Assembly (NCBI GenBank): GCA_951406725.2
Contig: OX597816.1
Span: 99,324,001 to 99,388,000 of the forward strand
Length of the DNA: 64,000 nt
Source of the DNA: Octopus vulgaris
Taxonomy: Eukaryota
Direction of reading: 5' to 3'
The notes below the pieces were generated by a model. The model was given only the letters and a program-made list of their open reading frames with translations, searched no databases and had not been told where the DNA came from. The translations under genes were made by a program, and so were the position numbers. Of the stretch, positions 1 to 64,000 are shown piece by piece. Numbering within the stretch: position 1 is the stretch's first letter; each line of letters starts with the position of its first letter.

Positions 1-68
<68 letters not shown>

Positions 69-69
69 C

Positions 70-233
70 ACGACGGACTCTTTCAGTTTCCATCTAACAA
101 ATCCACTCACAAGGCTTTGGTCGACCCGAGGCGATATTAGAAGACACTTGCCCAAAGTGCTATGCAGCGGGACTGAACCTGGGAGCATATAGTTGGTAAG
201 CAAGCCACTTCCTACACAACCACTCCTGCGCCT
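70..233 (-). mobile_element. tRNA-derived SINE family A, 5' head; the internal microsatellite at 1-62 probably belongs to it
   Basis: Reverse complement matches the copies at 14022 and 23752-24202, with A-box-like, B-box-like (GGTTCAGTCCC) and TGGGCAAGTGTCTT core motifs. Confidence 0.85.
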
Positions 234-7440: not shown

Positions 7441-7592
7441 TAGAGTATAGATAAAATTGCGTCTAATGACATAATGTAATAGGTATATGCCCTAAATGCT
7501 CGGGTTCGCTTACCACGTATGTATGTAGTTTACCATGTGCTTACCACGTATATAGTGTAACATGTATGTATGTCATTATTCGGTTTATTTTA

Positions 7593-7795
7593 GGCGGCGA
7601 GCTGGCAGAAATGTTAGCAATCCGGGCGAAATGCTTAGCGGTATTTCGTCTGTGTCCAAATTCCTTCGGGGTCGACTTTGCATTTCATCCTTTCGGGGTC
7701 GATAAATTTAGTACCATTTATGTACTGGGGTCGGTCTAATCGACTGGCCCCATCCCCCGAAATTTGCGGCCTTGTGCGTTGAGTGGAAAAGAATA
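7593..7795 (+). mobile_element. tRNA-derived SINE family B
   Basis: GGCGGCGAGCTGGCAGAA head, GTCGACTTTGC.TTTCATCCTTTCGGGGTCGATAAA core, GGCCTTGTG...GAAAAGAAT tail; many copies in the window. Confidence 0.9.
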
Positions 7796-7953
7796 AGTGT
7801 CTGTAAGTGGTCCACGTGTGTACGGGTAGATGTAAGTAATGAACAGACAAAAGAAAAATGAACGGGCTAAACGAGTATTATTAATTTAGAGCATGGTATT
7901 TATAATTCAAAAATACTTGCATTGTTAGATTAAATAGGTGACGAAGAAGTGGT

Positions 7954-8035
7954 GCATAAAGTCTGAAACAGCTGTTTCTATAATAGCTGTGCATATGCAT
8001 AGCTATTCTAGAAACAGCTGCAAAAGACTTTATGC
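7954..8035. repeat. 82-bp imperfect palindrome
   Basis: 41-nt arms centred on GCAT|ATGC; 35/41 positions complementary by manual comparison. Confidence 0.9.
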
Positions 8036-13950: not shown

Positions 13951-14021
<71 letters not shown>

Positions 14022-14024
<3 letters not shown>

Positions 14025-14347
14025 CACAGGAGTGGCTGTGTGGTAAGTAGCTTGCTAACCAACCACATGGTTCCGGGTTCAATCCCACTGCGTGGCATCT
14101 TGGGCAAGTGTCTTCTGCTATAGCCCCAATGCCTTGTGAGTGGATTTGGTAGACGGAAATTGAAAGAAGCCTGTCGTATATATGTATATATATATATATG
14201 TGTGTGTATGTGTTTGTCGTAAACACACCAGCAAAAGAGACCGATAGAATAAGTACTGGGCTTACAAAGAATAAGTCCCGGGGTCGATTTGCTCGACTAA
14301 AGGCGGTGCTCCAGCATGGCCGCAGTCAAATGACTGAAATAAGTAAA

Positions 14348-14350
<3 letters not shown>
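14022..14350 (+). mobile_element. SINE family A with internal microsatellite and internal deletion/micro-inversion
   Basis: A-box TGGCTGTGTGG, B-box GGTTCAATCCC, TTGGGCAAGTGTCTT, internal (TA)(TG), tail GGCGGTGCTCCAGCATGGCCGCAGTC..GTAAAAGA. Confidence 0.9.
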
Positions 14351-14397
<47 letters not shown>

Positions 14398-14506
14398 AGG
14401 GTGAAAATTGAATATTAATTTGATTAATATCAATTTAAAACCAGTCGTCTAGCATATTAAATACTGAAGGTTCAGAAAATTATATTACATTCATATACTT
14501 ATAAGC

Positions 14507-20086: not shown

Positions 20087-20135
<49 letters not shown>

Positions 20136-20333
20136 TATATACACGTATAGATGTAAGTATGTATATATGCATATATATATTATTTATATTATTATATGAT
20201 TGAACGCCACGCAACCTCTTCCAAGTATATATATATATATACATAAATATATATACATAGATATATATACATAGATATATATACATAGATATTTATATAT
20301 ATACATATATATGTATGTATATATATATATATG

Positions 20334-20391
<58 letters not shown>

Positions 20392-20394
20392 TAA

Positions 20395-20590
20395 TCCAAA
20401 CAAGAAAACACAAAAAAACACAACAACGCGAGGACGTGGAACAAATATAGTATTATTGGACGCTCTGGAAAGAAGGAAAGAAGGAGGGCTTATCGTTTTG
20501 AGCGGAGCTCTTCGTCGGAAACATAGGAGAAGGAAAGATCCAGAGAAGGGAAGACAGAGGGAAAAAAATCGCCAACGGTACACACGAGGT
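20395..20590 (-). mobile_element. Short non-coding repeat with hammerhead-like motif, in a (TA)n tract (copy 1)
   Basis: Clearly homologous to 54718-54888 (AACACAACAACGCGAGGACGTGGAACAA...GAGCGGAGCTCTTC...AAAAAATCGCCAAC). Confidence 0.8.
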
Positions 20591-20602
20591 CACATGTATG
20601 TT

Positions 20603-20647
<45 letters not shown>

Positions 20648-21469
20648 ATGGAGGTACGCATGTATGTATGTATGCATGTATGAATGTATGCATACGTAAT
20701 TATTATATACACATGTGTCTACGAGTAACGTTAAGTATTTTTATTGTTTTGAAGAAAGCAAATAATGTTTGACTATACACACACACACACACATTCTCAC
20801 ACTCGCATGCACACACACTCACACACACACACACATATATATATGTGTGTGTATGTATATATAATATATATACATAAATATATACGTATATATAAATATA
20901 TATATATTATTTAATCATATATTTATGATGATTAAACTAAGGATGAACAAGTTTTCTCATTCATTCCACTTCAAATGGACAGCGTATGGCAAACCATAAC
21001 CAAGGATACTTCAGCTTCTTATAATACGCCTTTGTCGCTTTATCTTTGTTGGCCAATAGTGAAATTCTATCTTTTTTAATAAAAAAAAGTCTTGTGTAAA
21101 GCTAACATTTAGTAGCGATTCAATAAACGAATGTTTTCTTGGTATCCCTATTGTTTACTTGTGTGTGTGTGTGTTTGACTGTGTGCATTTGAGAATTCAT
21201 CTTCCCCATCTGTTGTTGTTGAGACCTAACTCGTATATTCATCATTTCTTCTTTGCTTTTAACTTCCCGCTTTTGAGTATTGTTATTTTGTGCTACCTCC
21301 TCGATATATCTTACCGACTCTGCTGTCATTTTCCTTTCTAATCTCATTCTCGTCTGATGCATATTATTTTGCCACATCAAATCACACTTAACTAAATCAA
21401 CATATGGTTTCTGTAGGCTTTCCGAATCAAACGAGCGTTCAACTGACTGGAAATGGGTCCCTCAATGAG

Positions 21470-22499: not shown

Positions 22500-23730
22500 A
22501 GAAACGAAATGCATTTATTTTCTAAAATTAAATGTTGTGAATACTAAATTACAGTTAGACAAGGTTGTGACATCTCGATTATAAATGCAGATACTTGTAA
22601 AAAAATTCGTAAACCGAGATTACGTAAAACAGCGAAAATAGCGCGTGGTGTTTCGGGCGATAAATTACATTTCATGAGCAAAATGTGTATCGACGTCACA
22701 TTTCGAGGAGAGACGCGCGAAGCAAAATTATTCGTTGTGATAATACAATCAATCTGTTTGGCACAGATTGGTTAGATTTATGACACCCATAAATCTTTAA
22801 TGAAATAACATAAATGGCTGTCCTGTTAAAAGCAAGTCTTCGGAAGAACTGAAGACAAAATTGAGAAAAATGTTCCCGTAAGTGTTATCAGAGGAATTGG
22901 GGCTATGTAGAAAGACGGAAGCTTATTTCCAAGTAAGTGAAAACGCTGTACCTATATTAAAATCAAACAGAAAACTACCGTTCGCGGAAACTGAAACCAT
23001 AAATAAAGAGTTGGACAGGCTCGAAAAGAGTGGAGTCATGAAAAAGGTAGATTACGCGAAGTGGGTGGCACCCACGGCATGTATTTAGAAAATAATAACA
23101 TTAGGCTGTGTGCCGATATCTCTAGATGATTTGAACGACTGCTTAAAAACATATCACCATCCACTCCTGACTGCAAAGGACATTTCTTCAAATTTAAATG
23201 GTGGAAACATTTTTTCCAAATTAGATCTGTCTGAAGCCTGTTTACATATAAAGGTAAATGAAAAATGCTCAAAGTACTTGACAATAAGTACACACAGACG
23301 ATTGTACAGATACATACGATTACCTTTTGGATTAAGAGTGGCACCAGCAATATTTCAGCAAATCATTGATATTATGTTATCTGATTGTGAATTTGCAATC
23401 TCGGATTTGGACGATATTTTGATCTAGAGTAATTCTCGTGAACAGTGTGCGGAACACATGAAAGCTGTGTTTAAGAAAATTAAAGTTTCCGGGTTCGCTT
23501 TGACTGAAGGAAAATGAGAATTCTTTCTACTCTAAATTAAGTACTTAGGGCAAATAAATGATAAAAGTGGTAGACGTCCTGACCCGCCGAAGGCAGATGC
23601 AATAAGCAATATTCCTTCGTTGGAAACATTCCAACTTTACAAACATTTCTTGGATTGGCAAACTATCATCAAACTTACATTTCGAATATGCACAAGTTAA
23701 AAGCTCCTTTGAACGACTTATTAAAAAAAA
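22500..23730 (+). mobile_element. Ty3/Gypsy LTR retrotransposon pol relic (protease + RT), pseudogenised
   Basis: LQLD(T)GCDISIIN protease motif with a frameshift at ~22561; INKELDRLEKSGV..VDYAKWVAP; FSKLDLSEA..LTISTHR.LYRYIRLPFGLRVAPAIFQQ..SDLDDILI (YLDD>DLDD); IKYLGQI; FLGLANY; stops present; no LTR identified. Confidence 0.92.
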
Positions 23731-23751
23731 AATATATATATATATATACTC

Positions 23752-24002
23752 ATTACTCTTTTACTCTTTTACTTGTTTCAGTCATTTGACTGCGGCCATA
23801 TTGGAGCACCGCCTTTAGTCGAGCAAATTGACCCCAGGACTTATTCTGTGTAAGCCTAGTACTTATTCTTTCGGTTTTCTTTTGTCGAACCGCTAAGTTA
23901 TGGGGACGTAAACACACCAGCTTCGGTTGTCCATCGATGTTGGGGGGACAAATACAGACACACACACACACACATACAAACAGACGCCCGCGCACACACA
24001 CG

Positions 24003-24042
<40 letters not shown>

Positions 24043-24202
24043 CGACGGGCTTCTTTCAGTTCCCGTCTACCAAATTCACTCACACGGCTTTGGTCGTCCC
24101 GAGGCTATAGTAGAAGACACTTGCCCAAGGTACCACGCAGTGGGACTGAACCCGGAACCATGTGGTTGGGAAGCAAGCTACTTACCACACAGCCACTCCT
24201 AT
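23752..24202 (-). mobile_element. SINE family A, full length with internal (CA)n(TA)n microsatellite
   Basis: Reverse complement of the 14022 copy, plus the middle segment missing there; abuts the end of the Gypsy relic. Confidence 0.9.
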
Positions 24203-24210
24203 ATACATAA

Positions 24211-24272
<62 letters not shown>

Positions 24273-31660: not shown

Positions 31661-32557
31661 TTGAAAAATATATATTTACGTGAATATGTAATGTACCAGG
31701 TAAGTTGCAATAAGTGCGTTATTCGTTGGTTAAGGAAAAAATCGACAACTGCTGTAATTGTGAAATAAGATTATCTATTCTAACCACTGATCGAAATATT
31801 GGCACCTTGAGAATTGAATAGGCTATTCTCATTAAACAACATAAACCAGAAATGAACAACAGAACAGAACCGAACCGAATGGCGTGAATTGTTTTTCCTT
31901 TTGCTACCTCGCTTTACGTACCTACTCAAATTGCTAACTTTTTCTTCCCACATATACAGCATCGTTTAACCAACAGTATCTGAAAACATTTCTCGAATCC
32001 TTACCCACGGGATAACCTTACCTTATAAATTTCAGCCAATGTTAAATGATGTTTCTCACCAGCCATATATACACATGATCTTACTTGTCATGTCACACCA
32101 CCTACCGCTGCTACTGTTCCCACATCATCACGTTACCTGTTACCTCTGATAGAAACTACCTCAAACAACGACAAATACTAATACTGTCGGGTGTACAAGC
32201 TAATTCATGAAATGCCTTTCACCGCAATATATTAGAATAACAATATATTTCTCCAAACTCATTGAGTATTTACTTTCTTGTATTTAGAAATAGAATTTTT
32301 TTCGAAAAGTTTATAGAATCATTAAGTATCATATGTAAGGTAATATATTTTTCGCCTTAAATATACTTATTAACACCCCTTCAAACCTGCATTGCTTAAA
32401 TATGTTTGCAAACATTCCATTTATACATATTGCAATGTTTGAAGAAGTATTACAATACTCCTGTGTTTTTAATGAAACACAGACTTTTCAGAATCCAGAA
32501 CCTCGAAGAGCGAAATCAAAACACATCTGAACTGGTCAACAAACAATAATAATAATA

Positions 32558-32778
32558 ATCCTCTCTACTATAGGCACAATGCCTGAAATTTGGGTGGGGA
32601 GGGGGGAGTTAAGTCGATTAGATCGACGCCAGTACGCAACTGGTACTTAAGTTATCGACCTCGAAAAAATGAAAGGCAAATTCAACCTCAGCCGAATTTG
32701 AATTCAGAATGTAGCAACGGGTGAAATACAGCTAAGCATTTCTCCCGGCGTGCTAACGATTCTGCCAGCTCGTCGCCT
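32558..32778 (-). mobile_element. SINE family B, full length
   Basis: Reverse complement of the family B consensus, flanked by AAT repeats. Confidence 0.9.
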
Positions 32779-33659
32779 TAAATAATAACAATAATAATAG
32801 GTGATCGTGATATTGAAGTAGTGAAATTGAAGTGGTTTTGTATTATGCTATTGCTTGTTTCTGTTAATATTTGTTGCTGGCTTTGAAAAGTAATCGTTAT
32901 CAATGACTAGACAAAAAAAAACAATTGCAAATTATCTATGGATAGAATGAAGCATAAATAAGTACCATTGGCTTTCTAGTGTATTGTATAGGTGAACAAG
33001 GCTGTATAACCACTTCTACTATTTCATCAATTTTTCGAGAAGCCTTCGTTTGTTTCTAATTTGTTTTACTCTATATTTTGTCTTTATAAAAAACTTGGAA
33101 AATCTATATTAAACTTCTCTTACAATTTTGATTGGAAACACAATCTTCATCTTTGTGTATAGAAAAGAGAATTATGGTATTTCCAGCATCACGTGTGCTC
33201 TACACAAAATTTCCATTGAAAAGCTACCATTTTAGTTACTTTTACTTTTGTTCTTGTTATGGTTGTGGTTGTTGGTGTTGTAGGGTGTTGAATGTAGGGA
33301 GCGGGAAAATAAAACAAATCAATCACTTATTATAGATATAAAAGTGGCATAAAATCGAACTGTTTTGACATTGATTATTCAATACTGCTCTTTTTTATAT
33401 TTTGTGTTTTATTAATGTTGTATGGGACATACGTAATGAAAACAAAAAGAATAACGGTATGTGAAGGGAGTTATAAATGCATAAGAGTATTTAGTTACGT
33501 CTCCTTATGTTTTGAGTTCTAACCCCAATAAGGACGACTTTGCATTTCATAACTCTAGGGCCAATAAAAAGTATTGGGGTCAAGTCATTTGTTCGTACCA
33601 TTCCTCTCCGATTGTGTGGCGTGTAACTGTTAGAAATTATTGTTGTTGTTGTTGCAATT

Positions 33660-35812: not shown

Positions 35813-36905
35813 TTCAGTAGTTTTATTTTTATAGCGTGCTTTCACTTCACTACCGAGCGCAGCTCTGTAAGCCTTGAGTATGTGTTGTGATTTGTTGTGA
35901 TGCTCTGATGGTTACTGTATTGAAAGTGATTTCCTTAGGATGTGTGCAGTGGTCAGTAGCGCAATTTTCTGTATGTTATATGTGTTTGTAAGTCCTGGTG
36001 TTTTTGTTATGTATTTGTCTGAATATTTTTTATCATACCTAATGTGCCTACTATGATAGGAATTGTTTCTGTTTTTAGATTCCATATTCGAGTTACCTCT
36101 ATTTCCAGGTCTTTGTAATTTGAAAGTTTCTCCATTTCTTTTAGAGACACGTTGTCATCTGCTGGTATTGATGCATCAATTAGAAAGCATTTTTTCCTTC
36201 ATTATCTCTGACAACTATATCTGGCCTGTTGGCCTTAATTTCTCTGTGTGTATTAGCATATCCCAGAGTATGGTTGCTTTCTCGTTTTCTGTGACCTTTT
36301 CTGGTGTGTGCTTATACCATCTTTTTTCTGTTGTCATTCCATAATATTGGCATAGCTTCCAGTGTATGTAGGTCCTAACTCTGTCGTGCCAGTGAATATA
36401 TTCCTTCTTAGCCAGGGCTGGGCAGCCAGAGATAATAGGAATTATTGTTTCTCGTCCATCTCCACATATTCTGCAGTTACTTGTTATGTTTCTTTTCATT
36501 ATATGTTTTTGGTAATTCCTGGTGGGGAGGCTTTGGTCTTGTGCTCCGTCTCTGCTTTGAGTCCTGAGCTTCTCAACCATTGCTGGGGTTTTTCTTTGTC
36601 TATTTCTTTTGGATTTAGTTTTGTCCAGTATTTGCCATGAAGGTGCTTCTATTGCCATCGTTTTATCATGGTCCGTTGCTGTTCTAGTTTTAGCTTGGAT
36701 TTCATTTGTTTTATAGCTTATGTTTCTTCTTCTTCTTATTATTATTATTATTTGTTAGGTGGTATGGTTTCTTGTTTGTATTTGTCAGCTTCCTTAAATA
36801 CTGAGAAGTTTTTTTTTGTTTTGCTCGTGTTTTGCCGCTATTTGTATCAGTTTTTCTTGCTTCTGAAGTAAATATTTTTGCAGTCCTATGGTGGTTATTT
36901 TATAA
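35813..36905 (-). mobile_element. R4/Dong-clade non-LTR retrotransposon, 3' ~1.1 kb (zinc knuckle + restriction-like endonuclease)
   Basis: AQDQSLPTRNY..CRICGDGRETI..IISGCPALAKKEYIHWHDRV..IHWKLC..ILWD, then NRPDIVV..KCFLID..KLSNYKDLEIE..TAHILRK; (TAA)-type repeats at both ends. Confidence 0.9.
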
Positions 36906-43117: not shown

Positions 43118-44560
43118 ATATCATGTAGAAGAATAGTTCTACGGAATCCAGTTGACTGCAATGGCACTGACAAGGCTGTAGGTCAAGTGGACCATGATTG
43201 TTCATATAGAAAAAGCATTGCACGTCGTGCGTTTGTTTGACGATCTTTTTTAAGTAAACATATTTTGATTAGGAATATCAGTAAGTAATAGTCAAATGAA
43301 ATTACAAATGCTGTGTCCTGTCTGTGTTAGTGCTGAAATTCCGACAATATAGTGCAGGAATGGAAGGCAAATCAACAGTAAGTAATAGTCCAATGAAATT
43401 ACAGATGCTGTGTCCTGTCAATCGGATTAAGGTTTACTCGTCCTGTACGTGTGTATTATATAAAAACATATAATAAATGAAGTAGTAAAAAGATGGATCT
43501 CATATACGAATCTTTGTCCTTCAAGTAGCAATCCAGCAACTTTTAGTGTTTGGCCCTAACTTTTATTAATGGTCATATCAGAAGCAAAAAGCTAGACAAA
43601 TAGGTATATCATATAGAAGAATATCTTTACGACATCCAGGTGATTGCGATGGTACTGAAAAGACTACAGGTCAAATGGAACATCCATTTGTCACTGTTCC
43701 TTTTGACGTTTGAATAGGCGGTATATCGTAAATGAAGCTAGAAGAATAGCTATATCATATAGAAGAATAGCTTTATGGAATCCAGGTGGCTGTGCAATGG
43801 CACTGAAAAGGCCACAGGTGAAGTGGAAGACACATTTGTCATGGTTTCTTTTGACATTTGAATTGGACCGTATGTCCAAGGAGAATTGAAAGATTCAGTT
43901 TCGAATCTGAACAAGGGTGAGACTACGATTATAGATTTAGGTTTGTACGTGTTTCATCCTCGTTTTCTGCGGCACGTCGTTCGTTTGTTTGGTGTTCGTT
44001 TTTGACGGTCTTTTTTAAGTAGACATTTTTTGATAAGAAATATCAGTAAGTAATAATCAAATGATATTATAAATGCTGTGTCCTGTCTGTGTTAGTGCTG
44101 AAATTCCGACACCATGTTACAGGAATGGAAGGCAAGGCAACAATAAGTAATAGTCCAATAAGATTGCAGATGCTGTGTCCTGCCAGTCAGATTTAGGTTT
44201 ATTCTCCCTGTATGTGTGTATCATATAAGAGAAAAACATGTAATAATTGAAGTAGAAAAAAGAGAGATTTCATATACGAACTTCTGTTTGTTCTTCAAGT
44301 TGTAATCCAGCAACTTTTAGTGTTTGACACTGACTTACTGACTTTTATTAATGCTCATGGCAAAAGAAAGTGGGATAGGAAACTGTAAAGGCTTAAATTT
44401 GAATGGGACATTACATGGTATAACTGGTATGCGGGGAATGAAGATGGTGTCACGTTTACCACAACCAGTGAGAATATTTGCCTCGACACTCCAAGTCCTT
44501 GTAATAGCATTCGTGTATATGGAGGAAGATTTGGGTATCTTGTACCGGTACTGAGTAGTA
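43118..44560. mobile_element. Duplicated non-autonomous Helitron-derived mosaic with PIF1-helicase fragments
   Basis: Minus 44290-44500 VEANILTGCGKRDTIFIPRIPVIP..FKFKPLQFPIPLSFAMSINKSQ/QTLKVAGLQLEE; minus 43515-43585 MTINKS*GQTLKVAGLLLE; units 43118-43595 and 43752-44370 are homologous. Confidence 0.85.
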
Positions 44561-45817: not shown

Positions 45818-46025
45818 TGAGCTGGCAGAAATGTTAGCACGCCGGACAAAATGCTTAGCGGTATTTCGTCAGTCTTTACGTTCTGAGTTCACTTTTATGC
45901 CGAGGACGACTTTGCTTTTCATTCTTTTGGGGTCGATAAATTAAGTACCAGTTGCGTATTGGGGTTGACCTAATCGACTGGCCCCCTACTCAAAAATTTC
46001 GGGCCTTGTGCCAAGAGTAGAAAAG
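45818..46025 (+). mobile_element. SINE family B with 16-bp target-site duplication
   Basis: Flanked by AATATTTATGC(T/A)TTTG at 45802-45817 and 46026-46041. Confidence 0.92.
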
Positions 46026-46749
46026 AATATTTATGCATTTGCGTTTTTTTTTTTTAAGCTTTGGATCATTCTCCCATTTCCATTTTAATTCCTTATAATC
46101 TATATTGATATGCATATTTTTAATGACATTTTGCAGAAATAACGTTTTTGAAGTCTTTAATATCCTTGTTGTGGAGTTATTGTGACTTGATTGTGAAGAT
46201 TTTAAAATTTTCCAGCGTTGATTTGCCTGTTAATTTCTTCCGTACAATTCTAGAATTCTTTAACGTCCTATATATTCCTAATATACTGTCCCACTGCATC
46301 TGAGACAAATAGTGTGTGCTGTTAAGTTTTTAGGTGAGTGACCAAGCATCTAAAGTTTACGAATTGCTTCTCAACTGAAAATATTCTTCAAAATGATAGT
46401 CTGCCTTTCAGATAACTCAATGTGAGACAGGTTCTTTTTAGCGTAGATCTGGTCAAGCTTACGGTGAGTAAAGAGACAAAATGTCTTTTCTATCCAATGC
46501 TAGCAAGAGTATCTTAGGTGAAACTTACATACAATTTGAGATTTGTTTCTTATTTTCCTGGTGCCTATGTTTTAAATAGAGATTAGGATGCATATACACA
46601 CACATATTTATATGCATATATATACATACACATGGACATATATAATAATTCATATACGTATATACACACATATACATTTATAAATATGTTGATACATACA
46701 CATACCACTTCAAAAAATGTTGACCTAACTTGATTGAAAATAAAAGCAA

Positions 46750-47420: not shown

Positions 47421-48011
47421 TATATAATTCAGATACTATAGTTTTCTCACATTCCACAAATATTTCTATTACACCAAAATTCTCAATACAACACACATTG
47501 CGCTAAATTTGAATACGAGTTATGTGAAAGCATCGATATAAATTTCTAATTGAACAAACATCATCATCGAATATTCGATCGCATCAATAATGTCATCTGC
47601 AATGTATCAGTCGACACAACGACATTCCTCTTTCTTTAATGTTTCGATCGAATTCATGTATACAACAGACATTACTTCATTTTCATTTGCCATCTAGTCA
47701 GTAATGCAGTTTTGTATCATAAATTATTGACATAACTATTGACTCATCATCATTCAAATGTTGCATCCGTGCTGATGAAGCTGAATGATATGATGTTACG
47801 AGGCACAGATTTATCTCTGAAGCATATAACATACATACTTCTCTCCCTCTCTCTCTATCTATCTATCTATCCATCTCTCTTCTATTTCCATTCATTCTCT
47901 CTCTTTTTAAATATGTGCGCGAGTGTGTAGAAGAATGAATGAATGCGTGTATGCCTCAACTTGTGTAGCTTATAATAGAAATACACGTGTGTATTATGTG
48001 AATATAACAAT

Positions 48012-48860
48012 CCTTTCTCCTAGAGAAACGAGGCTTGAAATTCTATAAAGGCGTGGATTTATCGATTACATCAACGCCAGTGTACAACTGATAGTTACAG
48101 GATCGACTCTGAAAAAATGAAAGGCAAAGTCGACCTCGGTGGAATTTGAACTCAGAACGTAAAGACGAACGAAATGCCACAGAGTATTTTATTCGGTGTG
48201 CTAACGATTCTGCTAGCTCGCCGCTATGTGGATACACCGGAAAAGAGAAACTGACAGAAAGCATGAGATGTATATTCATTTCAATTTTGGCGCAAGATCA
48301 CTAATTTCAGGGGAGAGGATAAGTGCTTTGCATCGATCCCAGTGCTCAACTGACACGTATTTTATTGATCCCCAAAGGATGAAAGGCGAAGTCGACCTCG
48401 GTGGAATTTGAACTAAAAACCTAAAGACTGACGTAATGCTGCTAAGAACTTCATCCGGCGTCCTAAAAGCTCTGTCAGTTCGCCGTCTACAGGAGATAAA
48501 TAGGATATTTACATACATACATACATACATAACGTGTATATGTATGTAGATATCTATACACATTTACATACACATAAGCATATAACTTCCGTCAAATGCA
48601 AGTATAACTGTAAAGAAATAGTCGCATTGGACAGCAAAGAAATACTGGTGTCAAATATTGGCACAAGGCCTGCAATTTCGGAAAAGTGTTTAAGTCGATT
48701 ACAGTAATTTTAATATTCAAATACTATTTATTTTATCGACACCGAAAGGATGAAAAGCAAAGTCGGCCTCGGCGGAATTTGAACTCGGTACTTAAAGACG
48801 GACGAAATGCCGTTAAGCATTTTGTCCAGAGTACAAACGATTCTACTAGCTCGCCGCTTT
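48012..48860 (-). mobile_element. Three SINE family B copies, same orientation (48012-48225, 48285-48487, 48650-48860)
   Basis: Each has GAAAGGC(A/G)AAGTCG(A/G)CCTCGG.GGAATTTGAACT or a close variant; the third is flanked by ACAGCAAAGAAATA(C/T)TGGT at 48631-48649 and 48861-48879. Confidence 0.85.
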
Positions 48861-51134
48861 ACAGCAAAGAAATATTGGTTTTTAATTTTGACACAAGCCA
48901 AAAAACATTAAGTACATTGAAATATGGAATACCTGCAAACAGATTTTTCTGAAAAAATTATAAATTCACATTTATGCTCATTTATGCTATATTAGCTGAT
49001 GTCTCATTGGAAATCTCATTAAGAGTTTTCAAATAAACAGAGCTACTAGCTAATGTTTTTTTTATAAATGCCGTCTTTAAGCGATACAATAAAAAATATT
49101 TAGGTCTAGTTCAACATGGAACACACCGTCTTATTACCAAAATTTCAGCGATTGGGTATTGTTTCTTTGCGAGAAACTAGCTCCTTCCTAAAATAAAGGA
49201 ACAAACTATTGTTACTTTTGTTAATAAATGCAGTCAAAAGTGATCATTTATGTCGAATATTCAGTTAAATATGATAAAATAGAAATATCGCGTAGCAAGG
49301 AGTGAGTGTAAGTATCACGAAATATGCTCAGAGATTAGTTTCTTTCGACATATACAGTACAGTTTCGTCTTTCAATAAAGTTAAAGGAAGCAACGCTACA
49401 AATAATACTGGTAAAAAGAAATGGCCTCTAGGTGATCGCGTATCATCCTAGAAATAACACTCTAATTTCCTTCATGTGCAACTTCACCATCCTTATGATT
49501 AAAAGCTGATGGTGTAGCTGCTATATTGTGTAAGAAAGCAAAAGTTAAGATGGTCATTCGAATGCACTTGTTCATTGTTACCTGATCAGGACTAGCATAC
49601 AACTAAACAACAACAATGATAATTTAATCTTTGAATCAACTTTAACTACAAATTTGTTCTAATTTGATTACAAGTTTACTCTTTGAATCTATAAATCTGA
49701 GACGTGTGTAAAAGATCAAGAACTATTCTAGAAAAAAAATTATATAGAAGTGTTAATTGCTCTTGGTTCAGAACTTTAACTGTCAGTATTATCTGTGGAT
49801 TAAAGCAATAAAGTCTATATGAGCTGACGTTATATATATATATTATAATGAAATATACATTAATGATAGATATGCATTATTAAAGTTGTTTAAGAAAATC
49901 CAGTTGTAGATACTTTTTAACTGCTAAACAAACTGAGGCAATGTACACGTAACTGTTCTGGCCAAATACACAATGATTTGAGCTCACTCGTAGTTCAACA
50001 TTCTATCAGCTGCATAGCAAATGTATGGCATCAAAAATAGACCGCTGAATAACATACTTTATTGTATATGGTTACTTTCCTTTATATTCTAATTTTAAAT
50101 TTGCCTAGGTTTTCTCTCTTACCTCTAAGGAAAGTGCTGTACTCGATATACTCGAATCTACCATTAAAGGCGGTGCTGTACTATGGCCAGATTCCAGTGA
50201 GTGGACCAGTAAAAGATAAAAGAAACCACATATAACGCAAGTAGCCTAATATAACATCCATTCAGCCATTTATTTCATCTTCACTACTCTATAAGGAAAA
50301 ACGTTCTTTCGAAATACATTGTATTAAATTGCTGAAAGATGCCACCCTACTACTTAATGGAGGGAAACATTTAAACCACAGTTTATCATCATAATACATT
50401 AGTGTTTCTTGACTTCGGTGCTTCAGGACATCTTCGTAATATGTAGGTTATACAAGTTGAGTAATTTAAATCGATGCATACATTCTTCTAAAGAAGTTTA
50501 GTGAGAATTTCAGCCGCAAAATGATAGGAATTTTTATACCGAGTAAGATATAGTGTGTGATTAAAATATGATGGACTGAACATTTTCATCATTTTCTTGA
50601 AAGAAAGTGAAGAAAAATCTATTCAGATCAGCATTCATGGAAGAAATAATAGTTGCTTCAATACATCAATGCGAAATTAATGCTGTAGGATTGACTATAT
50701 GATAACTTAAAGTCCGATTTCCTGTCAACGCGGAGACAGATGTTGTTGAAATATGAATAAGTGGACGCCAGTTTGAAATCAATGAACCAAGAATATATTA
50801 CATTGCATTATGAAGTATAAATAACCTATTTCCTACAGTTAGTAGTGTTATGTGGTTCAGGTAAATTTTGACTTTCAGCTTCTATCTGTTGGAAGCTCTT
50901 CACTTGTGCACTTTACTAAAGCAATGAATATTATTAACAGACAAATATAAATTATCAACACTTATGTCAAAAGATAAAATATATACGCTACAGAATATTT
51001 TGCTTCTTTGTTTTTCTTTTTGTGTTACTTTCGAAACATGAAGACACAAGGAGCATTCGTCTATTCTTTTAAAAGAACATAAAATTAGATTAGCATAAAA
51101 TTAGAATAATTTCATAAATAATTATTTCTTATTG

Positions 51135-54218: not shown

Positions 54219-54493
54219 ATATAAGAATTATAGGAATGGAGTAGATAAAATCCGGGTTACACATGTTTCATAGCGAGCGGAACCTCGGAAGTGGTAATTA
54301 TCCAAGCGAGATGATCGAATCACCGTGTGTTAACATATACCACCTTGTAAAGTTCATTTAATCAAGATACCCTTGACCTTACAAGTAGCTTGCGGTATAC
54401 ACCTCGCTTCGATATATACCATTTTCGAGGTTCCGCTTGCTATGAAACATATGTAGCCCGGATCTTATCTACTCTCTTCCTTAACTCTTGTAT
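54219..54493. repeat. ~90-bp inverted repeat pair (54219-54310 / 54403-54493)
   Basis: GAGTAGATAAAATCCGGGTTACACATGTTTCATAGCGAGCGGAACCTCG matches the reverse complement of CGAGGTTCCGCTTGCTATGAAACATATGTAGCCCGGATCTTATCTACTC. Confidence 0.9.
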
Positions 54494-54717
54494 CGTTATT
54501 ATTCGCATGTCGTGGTTGCCAACCCTGGTTACCTAACGTGAAATATAAAATATTGCCTTTTTAGTTTATCGTACATCGATATGAAAAATCCTCAGCTTTC
54601 CGCCTCCATAAACTAAATTTGTGACTGAAAGTTATTTTTTATATTTACTACGGTTTGCTTGAAGCTAACATTCTTCCTACACCCCTATATTAGAATCTTT
54701 ATATATATATATATATA

Positions 54718-54888
54718 ATCCAAACATGAAAACACAACAACGCGAGGACGTGGAACAAGTATAGTGTTATTGGATACTCAGGAAAGGAAGGAAGGAAAGA
54801 AGGATTTAACGTTTCGAGCGGAGCTCTTCAGAAACATAGGAAAAGGAAAAATCCAAGGAAGGGAAGACGGAGGGAAAAAATCGCCAAC
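54718..54888 (-). mobile_element. Short non-coding repeat with hammerhead-like motif, in a (TA)n tract (copy 2)
   Basis: Homologous to 20395-20590; minus strand GTTT-CTGAA-GAGC-TCC-GCTC-GAAAC-GTT-AAAT. Confidence 0.8.
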
Positions 54889-55366
54889 ATACATATATAT
54901 ATATATATATATGCGTATAAGGGTGTGTGTACGGGAGTTTTACAGTAGTCAACGAGCAAGTACTCTTTATGCTGTATCTTATGTCCAGTAGCCTAACTGT
55001 GAGATGAAGACCTTATGTACCTGTATGAAATGTGATCTGGGGTCGGTATCATTGAATAAACCATTAAAAGGCAATGCACTAACAAGGCCAAACTTGTATT
55101 ATTTCAGCAAAAATTATAGTACTTCATGCTTAGCTGTCCATTACAGTCATGTTTATACTTAAATTTATTATGTTGACTATTTTACATAATAGTCTTTTTT
55201 GTTTTTTTGTTTTTTTCTTTCGCAGAGTCTGCTTTCTTTAACCGGATATTTTTACTTTCATCTTGATCGAAATTGCTTCATGATTTCCATTCCGGTTTAC
55301 ATGTGGTTATAACTAATCAAATCTTTCAAGATAATATCATCATCGGTTATTTCCTAGATATTCATA

Positions 55367-60592: not shown

Positions 60593-60609
60593 AGTCAAAT
60601 TAAATCATA

Positions 60610-60792
60610 AGGCCAACAATTTCGGAGGGAGAGAGTAAGTCGATTACATAGGACCCAGTGCTCAACTGGTATTTGTTTCATCGATACCGAAAGGATGAAA
60701 GGCAAAATCAACCCCAGGACATATGAACCCATAACGTAAAGACAGACGAAATGCCACTAAGCATTTTGCCCGGCCTGCCAGCTTGCCACTTT
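60610..60792 (-). mobile_element. SINE family B
   Basis: GAAAGGATGAAAGGCAAA...GACGAAATGCCACTAAGCATTTTGCCCGG..GCCAGCTTGCC. Confidence 0.8.
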
Positions 60793-62799: not shown

Positions 62800-63432
62800 C
62801 GGTATTAATTCCGAGTTTTATGTTCTGAGTTCAGATCCCGCGAAGGTCAGCTTTCTTTTTCATCCCTTCAGTTTCATTCCTTTCATCCCTTAAATTACTA
62901 GTACTGGAGCTGGTGGTTTTGATTAATAATCTCCCCTCAAATTTCTTGGTCAGAAACCATCATTTAAACTTGTGCAATTTATTGTATAAATCGTTATTGA
63001 AGTAGGCATTAATATGATGCCATTATTGTTTTTAACTATATAGAATATTTGAAGTACTTCAGTACTTGACTGGCACTCTATATTATCGACCCCGGAAGAA
63101 TAAAAGAGAAAATCGGGTTTGGTGGAATTTGGACAAAGAATATAAAGAGCCGTAACCAAATACAGCTAGGCATTTTCTTTGATACTTTTGCAATTCTAGT
63201 ATAGAGAGGATCATCAATTAAGGCGACGAGCTGGCAGAATTATTAGCACACCGCGCAAAATGCTTAGCAGCGTTTCTTCCATCTGTACGTTCTGAGTTCT
63301 AATTCCGCCGAAGTCGACTGTGCCTTTCATTCTTTCGAGGTCGATAAAATAAATACCAGTTGAGCACTGGGGTTGATGTAATCGGCATAGCCCCGCCCCC
63401 GAAATTTCTGGCCTTGTGCCAAATTTTGAAAC
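62800..63432. mobile_element. SINE family B cluster: degenerate + (62800-62950), degenerate - (63050-63190), well-preserved + (63222-63432)
   Basis: The 63222 copy reads GGCGACGAGCTGGCAGAA..GTTCTGAGTTCTAATTCCGCCG..GGCCTTGTGCC. Confidence 0.85.
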
Positions 63433-64000
63433 TTATATAAAGAATAGCATTATCTGCTTCATTTGTGTGTATGTGTGCGTGTGCATGTATGTGTTCGTAT
63501 GCAGGTATGAAAGGAGAGAGAGAGAGGGACAGAGAAAAGGAGAAAGAAACCCTCTGTGTATGTGTGCGTGTGTATGCGTGTTATAAGTTGCTCGTGATTC
63601 TAGTTTAAAACTATGGAGTAGAATCGGATCGTGTGTAACTAAGTGGTAATATTCTGAAAGTATCCATCATCTATACAACATAAATAAGCAATGAAGTGAG
63701 ACAAAATGTCAGCGAGAAGCCTTACTTGGAAACTTGATCTCGGGATTGGTAGTTCAACACACTGTTATTTGTTAGCTTCGGAATTATGAGGGTGTATATG
63801 TTTTATGAGTTATCACACAGAAAAAGAAAATTATATAATTCAATAACAAAAAGGGTAAAATAATTGCAACCTGAAATTTCTAAAATACGAATGAATGAGT
63901 ATAAATACCAGTATTTTGTATTATTACGCTTGAATTCACAAAAACACTATGGGGATTTAAGGGGGAAAAATGTATATCAAGAACAATACGATTTGAAGTT

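What the first reader, a model, noticed from the sequence alone, without database searches (positions are those of the whole stretch)
20395..20590. Retrozyme-like family: short non-coding hammerhead-bearing repeat in (TA)n tracts (second copy at 54718-54888)
Seen: two ~170-190 bp homologous, ORF-less elements 34 kb apart, both on the minus strand and flanked by (TA)n. Copy 1 reads GTTT-CCGACGA-A-GAGC-TCC-GCTC-AAAAC-GAT-AAGC and copy 2 reads GTTT-CTGA---A-GAGC-TCC-GCTC-GAAAC-GTT-AAAT. Their defects are complementary, giving the consensus GTTT-CTGACGA-A-GAGC(TCC)GCTC-GAAAC-GTT-AAAC: a type-I hammerhead with an extra A after A9 and a loopless palindromic helix III (ACGT) that could form only in a dimer. 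Known: an extra A at this position is tolerated in the CChMVd viroid hammerhead. Inferred: a non-autonomous, ribozyme-processed retroelement, possibly via circular RNA, mobilised by Penelope RT and favouring TA microsatellites. Both copies here look inactive.
Basis: partly seen in the sequence, partly recalled or inferred. Interest (0 to 1): 0.75.

Follow-up and report, generated by a model that had tools for sequence, protein, structure and literature searches.

The report
Solo Penelope ends, drifting hammerhead cores
The two repeats are the lone end-pieces of a known kind of protein-coding jumping gene (a Penelope-like element) with its usual stripped-down self-cutting RNA motif, but most copies were made straight through the predicted cut site and the youngest intact elements found carry altered catalytic letters, so the motif likely cuts weakly or not at all here.

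Summary
Both copies are real (86% alike, minus strand, in TA tracts) and belong to a family of more than 10,000 copies. They are not a retrozyme. They are the 3'-terminal ~170-205 nt (pseudo-LTR end) of autonomous Penelope-like elements: the same unit lies behind an RT + GIY-YIG gene in 18 of 20 selected loci and flanks intact elements as a direct repeat; no tandem arrays were seen. The ribozyme fits the 2014 minimal PLE hammerhead descriptor, extra A and ACGU helix III included. Two points go beyond that. (1) Of 70 copies found by a 3'-only probe, 44 start 85-113 nt upstream of the predicted cut, 1 at it, 4 further up: likely run-off copies of an uncut RNA from a fixed start. The scan noted such fixed starts in other genomes. 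(2) Copy 1's CCGACGA is not decay: U4C is fixed in a young intact lineage, a sister lineage has A6U, and these cores outnumber canonical ones 27,483 to 4,715 in exact-pattern counts, while helix I, N7 and H17 still follow hammerhead rules. Cleavage is untested; a key paper (Lunse 2017) could not be read.

The parts
20390..20595 (-). Copy 1: solo terminal unit (206 nt) of a Neptune/Nematis-type Penelope-like element, U4C subfamily; 5' end about 103 nt upstream of the predicted cut, the commonest start
   Evidence: (94% to the inverted unit beside a truncated ORF in L204, 90.5% to the downstream repeat of L208, 89% to L202)
20488..20522 (-). Minimal type I hammerhead motif of copy 1: U4C (subfamily trait) plus private G12A and U16.1A; predicted inactive; predicted cut between 20492 and 20491
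20089..20389 (.). TA-rich tract at the fixed 3' end of copy 1 (insertion target)
20596..20690 (.). TA/TG microsatellite at the 5' junction of copy 1
54717..54888 (-). Copy 2: solo terminal unit (about 172 nt), canonical-core subfamily; 5' end about 84 nt upstream of the predicted cut
   Evidence: 89% to the units behind the EN gene in L201 and L206
54804..54835 (-). Hammerhead motif of copy 2 with a private 3-nt deletion in the CUGANGA box; predicted inactive
54699..54716 (.). (TA)n at the 3' end of copy 2
54889..54912 (.). (TA)n at the 5' junction of copy 2

Best explanation
The two repeats are dead solo end-pieces of autonomous Penelope-like retrotransposons (RT plus GIY-YIG endonuclease), likely written into TA microsatellites by the element's own enzyme as short run-off copies of an RNA that was not cut at its hammerhead. 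Shown: the unit is the last ~200 nt of a 1-3 kb CA-rich 3' region behind the gene, and is repeated in front of the gene in full-length elements; its 3' end is fixed at a site where the element's own sequence continues with TTATA; most 5' ends fall in a narrow zone with a sharp limit about 113 nt upstream of the predicted cut. Inferred: the endonuclease nicks (TA)n, the nicked strand primes on the UUAUA stretch, and the RT copies to the 5' end of the RNA, which would be a transcription start inside the pseudo-LTR; either the leader of the full-length transcript or a transcript from a downstream or solo unit can be the template. Inferred: the hammerhead is a weak, dimer-dependent or non-cutting motif in these lineages, since copies run through the cut site and young intact lineages carry U4C or A6U.
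For: Parent: L076 shows GIY-YIG end, T-rich stretch, 1.4 kb CA-rich body, unit, (TA)n. 18 of 20 loci taken from 150 hits of that endonuclease (18 from the top 30, chosen partly, 2 for long frames) have the unit 0.5-3 kb downstream on the same strand, 2 of the 18 only its 3' half; an unrelated PLE family gave 1 of 40, with foreign sequence between. L210: unit, 1,061-codon open frame, unit, then an inverted unit; repeats 98.7% identical over 1,136 bp; 1,004 homologues at E<=1e-20 with RVT_1 and GIY-YIG domains. Ends: 3' end followed by TA in 22 of 30 and 26 of 29 copies; 5' ends in 70 copies found by a core-independent probe: 44 at -85 to -113, 22 shorter, 4 longer, 1 within 5 nt of the cut. A 25-nt probe just beyond that limit has 15 exact matches against 10,091 for the 3' probe. 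Tandems: 9 same-strand pairs under 1.2 kb among 196 motif contexts, 8 with a TA run between, 1 a chimera of two lineages. Motif fits the RNAmotif descriptor and consensus of Cervera and de la Pena 2014. Cores: canonical 4,715, U4C 8,983, non-A6 18,500 (97 of 100 listed are U), controls 0; near-identical families carry U4C (40 of 40 hits 99-100%) and A6U (40 of 40 hits 98-100%; three two-repeat elements, repeats 98.7-99.8% identical).
Against: No transcription start or cleavage was measured. The initiator-like word at the 5' limit (consensus recalled, not from a call) is not kept in all subfamilies. Short homology to the TA/TG target could help pile ends near -103, and alignment to only 9 references underestimates a few ends. 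Solos outnumber long copies so strongly that some copying from solos is possible. The motif still obeys hammerhead rules (helix I pair 4 standard in 142 of 149 with a G-C to C-G switch between lineages, position 17 not G in 146 of 149, N7 free), which argues for some retained function; a cut-and-religated circle would also leave no ends at the cut. No fully intact element of the exact subfamily of either window copy was found (best 89-94%). Pfam scores of the ORF are below cut-off, and Neptune versus Nematis was not resolved by a tree.
Confidence: 0.85

Rival explanations
1. SINE-like amplification: some solo units that keep the internal promoter are transcribed on their own into the flanking (TA)n and are re-copied in trans by the PLE enzyme, so part of the family is non-autonomous (but linear and not ribozyme-processed).
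For: 66 of 70 sampled copies are solo-sized and stop at one limit; the pseudo-LTR holds the promoter in D. virilis Penelope and pLTRs suffice for mobilisation in trans in a rotifer.
Against: Most solos start downstream of the limit and would have lost the start; each solo sequence type has gene-linked counterparts, and the same short-copy excess appears in the sister lineage, as expected of a by-product of the autonomous mechanism.
Confidence: 0.25
2. Non-LTR retrozyme: tandem units are cut by dimeric hammerheads, circularise, and the circle is reverse transcribed.
For: The intact motif exists in 1,738 exact copies; retrozymes derive from PLE pLTRs and leave monomers (bioRxiv 2026.07.22.740005); unit length is in the retrozyme range.
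Against: No head-to-tail repeats among 196 motif contexts; both ends are fixed about 100 nt from the cut, with no circular permutations seen; the unit is continuous with an RT gene; retrozymes mostly carry canonical hammerheads with loop-loop contacts.
Confidence: 0.05
3. Solos are ordinary random 5' truncations or recombination leftovers of full-length elements, and the clustering of starts is due to microhomology with the target.
For: Longer copies of every length exist; many 5' junctions show 2-3 nt shared with (TA)n; solo pLTRs were ascribed to recombination or deletion in a rotifer.
Against: Only 11 of 70 copies end in the ~85 nt from the probe to -55, 35 end in the 14 nt from -100 to -113, and 4 pass it; the true direct repeats are over 1 kb long, so recombination would leave longer solos.
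Confidence: 0.12
4. The ribozyme is functional in vivo even with U4C or A6U: it cuts slowly, as a dimer or with protein help, to process a fraction of tandem precursors, and weak cores are favoured because fast cutting would destroy the template.
For: Helix I covariation, H17 and free N7 persist in all lineages; U4C supports viroid infectivity and A6C keeps low, Mn-dependent activity; PLE minimal hammerheads cut weakly as dimers.
Against: 1 of 70 copies begins at the cut; two different core positions changed in two successful lineages. This rival concerns the ribozyme only and is compatible with the solo pseudo-LTR verdict.
Confidence: 0.45

Closest known systems
Minimal type I hammerheads (min-HHR) in pLTRs of metazoan Penelope-like elements (Cervera and de la Pena 2014, PMC4209133; parts 1-2 of 4 of the text and passages of one supplement read)
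   Same: Short helix I, CUGANGA plus one extra nucleotide, G10.1-C11.1, GAAANNUH with palindromic positions 15.2-16.2, U-rich 5' flank; mostly dispersed single copies, some opposite-strand pairs, few in full elements.
   Different: Their descriptor demands CUGANGA, so the U4C and A6U cores that dominate this genome and its young elements would be missed; the fixed 5' start of solos is not in the parts read.
EN+ Penelope-like elements of the Neptune/Nematis type (Craig et al. 2021, PMC8557442; introduction, passages and supplement hits read; Arkhipova et al. 2013, PMC3846280, passages)
   Same: RT, CX4CX2C linker, C-terminal GIY-YIG with CCHH motif, direct and inverted pLTRs, hammerhead near the 3' end, (TA)n targets.
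   Different: 1-3 kb CA-rich 3' region; the octopus rows found in the Craig supplement (2 of 4 hits seen) are Naiads, with N-terminal EN, not this family. Whether Repbase or Dfam hold it could not be checked.
Metazoan non-LTR retrozymes (Cervera and de la Pena 2020, PMC7229834, passages; Li et al. bioRxiv 10.64898/2026.07.22.740005, part 1 of 5 and passages)
   Same: Short, non-coding, type I hammerhead, related to PLE pLTRs, monomers scattered over the genome.
   Different: Defined by tandem units with a ribozyme in each and by circular RNA; here no tandems were seen, and the unit is part of a coding element.
Natural hammerhead core variants U4C (viroid) and A6C (phage Bcep176) (Perreault et al. 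2011, PMC3088659; Naghdi et al. 2020, PMC7151607; passages)
   Same: Changes at positions 4 and 6 that lower activity but occur in nature.
   Different: There rare single cases; here fixed in whole lineages with thousands of copies, and A6U rather than A6C.

Membership tests
PLE minimal hammerhead (min-HHR) | CUGANGA box with optional extra nucleotide | tested here: met
   Met by the canonical subfamily (1,738 and 4,715 exact matches; descriptor); not met by the U4C and A6U lineages nor by either window copy.
PLE minimal hammerhead (min-HHR) | Helix II of 3-7 bp closed by G10.1-C11.1, GAAANNUH with palindromic helix III, helix I of 3-7 bp | tested here: met
   GAGC/GCUC, GAAACGUH, 4-bp helix I with pair 4 standard in 142 of 149 contexts, pairs 5-6 not.
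PLE minimal hammerhead (min-HHR) | Self-cleavage as a dimer | not testable with these tools
   No assay; genomic 5' ends do not pile at the cut (1 of 70).
EN+ Penelope-like element (pLTR of) | Unit lies at the 3' end of an RT + C-terminal GIY-YIG gene and is repeated in front of it | tested here: met
   L210, L208, L352, L354, L358.
EN+ Penelope-like element (pLTR of) | Inverted and partial-tandem insertions | tested here: met
   L204, L210, L202, L091, L015.
Neptune or Nematis clade | Zn-finger-like CX2-5CxxC linker before the EN; (TA)n targets | tested here: met
   CX4CX2C in the L210 and L358 proteins; TA flanks; definition.
Neptune or Nematis clade | Placement in the RT phylogeny with named references | not tested
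   No named reference among the 120 homologues listed.
Non-LTR retrozyme | Head-to-tail tandem units, each with a hammerhead | tested here: not met
   0 among 196 motif contexts in the loci held; a sample, not the whole genome.
Non-LTR retrozyme | Independence from a coding element | tested here: not met
   Continuous with the RT-EN gene in 18 of 20 selected loci.
Non-LTR retrozyme | Unit-length circular RNA | not testable with these tools
   Only assembled contigs of runs of uncertain type were available.

The most novel reading that the evidence does not exclude
In this genome the currently spreading Penelope-like lineages have given up, or strongly damped, hammerhead catalysis: one lineage replaced a canonical core by U4C at its youngest tip, its sister fixed A6U, both kept the fold, and the element's RNA is copied uncut from a fixed start. 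The motif would then serve as a structural signal (for the RT or for translation) or as a deliberately slow switch, and CUGANGA-based screens miss most such motifs in animal genomes.
Probability: 0.4. Interest if true: 0.62.

Novelty: new variant of a known kind. Interest (0 to 1): 0.36.

Why it matters
As given, the finding is an ordinary member of a class described in 2014. What it adds bears on an open question, since Craig et al. 2021 call hammerhead function in EN+ PLEs unclear. This genome offers a natural series within one element group: canonical, U4C and A6U cores, with intact young elements for the last two and tens of thousands of insertions whose ends record the template. That makes it directly testable whether cutting is needed for Penelope transposition, and suggests that published counts built on CUGANGA undercount these motifs several-fold.

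Tried and rejected
1) A second PLE family (ORF in L096; fragment in the window at 6898-5778) first looked like the parent because it abuts the unit in L078, L081 and L130. Rejected: it has its own 3' end without the motif, and only 1 of 40 loci had the unit downstream on the same strand, with unrelated sequence between. 2) L194's upstream unit is not a true pLTR (76% to the downstream unit, TA run before the gene). 3) Rfam: no hammerhead among the 150 listed of 215 matches. 4) Monomer and two-strand folding neither beat shuffles nor gave the hammerhead dimer; the lowest-energy folds pair the 5' core strand with the ACGU palindrome; not used as evidence. 5) Expression: no RNA holder listed; contigs of four runs of guessed type cover the unit but cannot show starts, ends or circles. 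6) Nearest-neighbour identity by core type is biased by how loci were fetched and was dropped; age rests and on repeat identity. A young canonical subfamily was not found (best non-self 92-93%; 94%) but is not excluded, as both queries are themselves aged. 7) No solved structure matched the ORF. 8) Lunse, Weinberg and Breaker 2017 (PMC5785218), the other main paper on PLE hammerhead variants, is not held; I saw only its citation and a review's summary. It may already describe U4C or A6U cores. Searches for these terms with 'hammerhead' gave only Perreault 2011 and a twister paper, seen as a listing; no paper on this family turned up. One of the Cervera 2014 supplement files could not be searched. 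Repbase and Dfam were not available.

Full report
Observation. The genome is 2.8 Gb in 227 contigs and very rich in microsatellites; I take it to be octopus-like, which is an inference. Copy 2 drew 3,323 candidates, of which the 40 scored were 89-94% identical apart from itself.

The ribozyme. The motif has a 4-bp helix I, CUGACGA plus one extra A, a 4-bp helix II closed by G-C, and GAAACGUH. This is the descriptor and consensus of the minimal hammerheads that Cervera and de la Pena (PMC4209133) found in Penelope pseudo-LTRs, where the extra nucleotide and the palindromic helix III are listed as conserved traits and where most motifs are single, some in opposite-strand pairs. Across 149 distinct motif contexts in the loci then held, pair 4 of helix I is standard in 142 (G-C 62, G-U 39, C-G 37, A-U 4) while pairs 5 and 6 are not, position 17 is A, C or U in 146, and position 7 takes all four letters. 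My search patterns fixed other positions, and the G-C to C-G switch is probably one event between two lineages. Rfam and folding energy do not detect the motif.

Finding the parent. Copies share a fixed 3' end and differ at the 5' end. A probe further upstream had only 15 matches, and these ran into a shared CA-rich body. A first candidate parent, a PLE family with a fragment in this window, was rejected: it has its own 3' end and the unit followed it in 1 of 40 loci, by chance. The true link is L076: GIY-YIG endonuclease end, T-rich stretch, 1.4 kb CA-rich region, unit, (TA)n. Of 20 loci chosen from 150 hits of that endonuclease (18 from the top 30, partly on the basis, and 2 for long frames), 18 have the unit 0.5-3 kb downstream on the same strand, 2 of them only its 3' half. 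L210 is complete: unit, 1,061-codon frame with RT, CX4CX2C linker and GIY-YIG, unit, (TA)n, inverted unit; its direct repeats are 98.7% identical over 1,136 bp. L208 has the same layout with a broken frame. Pfam hits are weak, but 1,004 database proteins match at E<=1e-20, with RVT_1 and GIY-YIG domains among those listed. The linker and TA targeting point to the Neptune/Nematis type. Copy 1 is 89-94% and copy 2 89% identical to units beside such genes. Among 196 motif contexts there were 9 same-strand pairs under 1.2 kb: 8 with a TA run between and one chimera of two lineages; a further pair 239 nt apart in L082 is two subfamilies split by a TA run. So this is the pseudo-LTR end of coding elements, not a retrozyme as defined in PMC7229834 and bioRxiv 2026.07.22.740005.

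How the solos likely arise. The 3' end lies about 105 nt past the predicted cut, where full-length elements continue with TTATA into the leader of the gene; TA follows it in 22 of 30 and 26 of 29 copies. To avoid selecting for the core I took the first 70 listed of the 10,091 matches to the 3' probe. Relative to the cut, 44 start at -85 to -113 (35 at -100 to -113), 22 are shorter, 4 are longer, and 1 is within 5 nt of the cut; two of the 70 are arms of one inverted insertion, and a few ends are underestimated. The true repeats exceed 1 kb, so recombination does not explain this size. The simplest reading, inferred, is target-primed copying that begins on the UUAUA stretch and runs off an RNA 5' end inside the pseudo-LTR; D. 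virilis Penelope starts transcription within its pseudo-LTR (PMC2377424, passages). The template was uncut, or cut and rejoined. Whether solos are themselves re-copied in trans is open (compare PMC3846280). After reaching this result I saw that the scan had noted solo PLE ends with fixed starts in other genomes; those are unchecked notes.

Core variants. Copy 1's CCGACGA is inherited, not decay. With one pattern frame, canonical cores number 4,715, U4C 8,983 and non-A6 18,500, of which 97 of the 100 listed are A6U. These are exact-match counts, which favour young copies. U4C is in both repeats of L210, whose end has 40 of 40 scored hits at 99-100%. A6U marks a sister lineage (61% protein identity): 40 of 40 hits at 98-100%, the gene upstream in 14 of 20 fetched loci, three elements with two repeats 98.7-99.8% alike and one uninterrupted frame. 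A tree of the endonuclease region (27 element rows, 4 outgroup rows) puts six U4C elements in one tip clade (98/95) above canonical ones, one further U4C row outside it, and the A6U lineage apart. A canonical query found nothing closer than 92-93%, which does not exclude a young canonical subfamily. In print, U4C and A6C are rare natural variants of lowered activity (PMC3088659, PMC7151607); the 2014 descriptor requires CUGANGA. I found no report of such cores fixed in PLE lineages, but Lunse et al. 2017 could not be read.

Verdict. Both window copies are dead: copy 1 by G12A and U16.1A, copy 2 by a 3-nt deletion. The element is a known kind. The fixed start and the lineage-wide core changes are the parts worth following, since hammerhead function in these elements is stated to be unclear. 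Public runs gave no usable RNA evidence, and nothing here shows cleavage or circles.

Noticed in passing
window 6898-5778 (minus): 5'-truncated copy of a different PLE family (GIY-YIG end, CA-rich 3' region, own 3' end at a TA tract). No CUGANGA-type motif was seen behind its gene in 40 loci; its protein is only about 22% identical to the parent family.
   Followed up: partly
L358, L352, L354; pattern: Young, intact sister lineage with an A6U core and free N7; about 18,500 exact-pattern copies, the most abundant form of the motif found in this genome.
   Followed up: yes
L076 5420-6330 (reverse-complemented locus), L194, L204, L327: Units or gene ends of different subfamilies are joined head-to-head or end-to-end, suggesting template switching between related RNAs or repeated insertion into the same TA tract.
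   Followed up: no
L091, L015, L223/L224, L240/L241, L287/L288: Short fold-back insertions made of two inverted units, the typical PLE inverted structure in miniature.
   Followed up: no
window 54219-54493: A 275-bp imperfect palindrome (72% self-complementary) 220 bp from copy 2; a smaller one at 7954-8035. Possibly MITE-like.
   Followed up: no
window 46-227, 13958-14399, 23717-24270; and 7585-7804, 32552-32785, 45819-46031, 48004-48874, 60606-60778, 63218-63439: Two other dispersed short repeat families with several copies in the window, probably SINEs (label from recall).
   Followed up: no
window 23089-23427 (+) and 36215-36754 (-): Fragments that look like an LTR-retrotransposon RT and the C-terminus of a non-LTR RT (judged by eye).
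   Followed up: no
window 43236-44369: Nested repeat: a 148-bp tandem (1.9 copies) inside a larger 350-bp direct repeat at 83% identity.
   Followed up: no
L196, L208, L210, L358 motifs: The lowest-energy monomer folds pair the 5' core strand with the ACGU palindrome, a possible off-state hairpin; U4C and A6U would each add a pair in one register. Speculative.
   Followed up: partly
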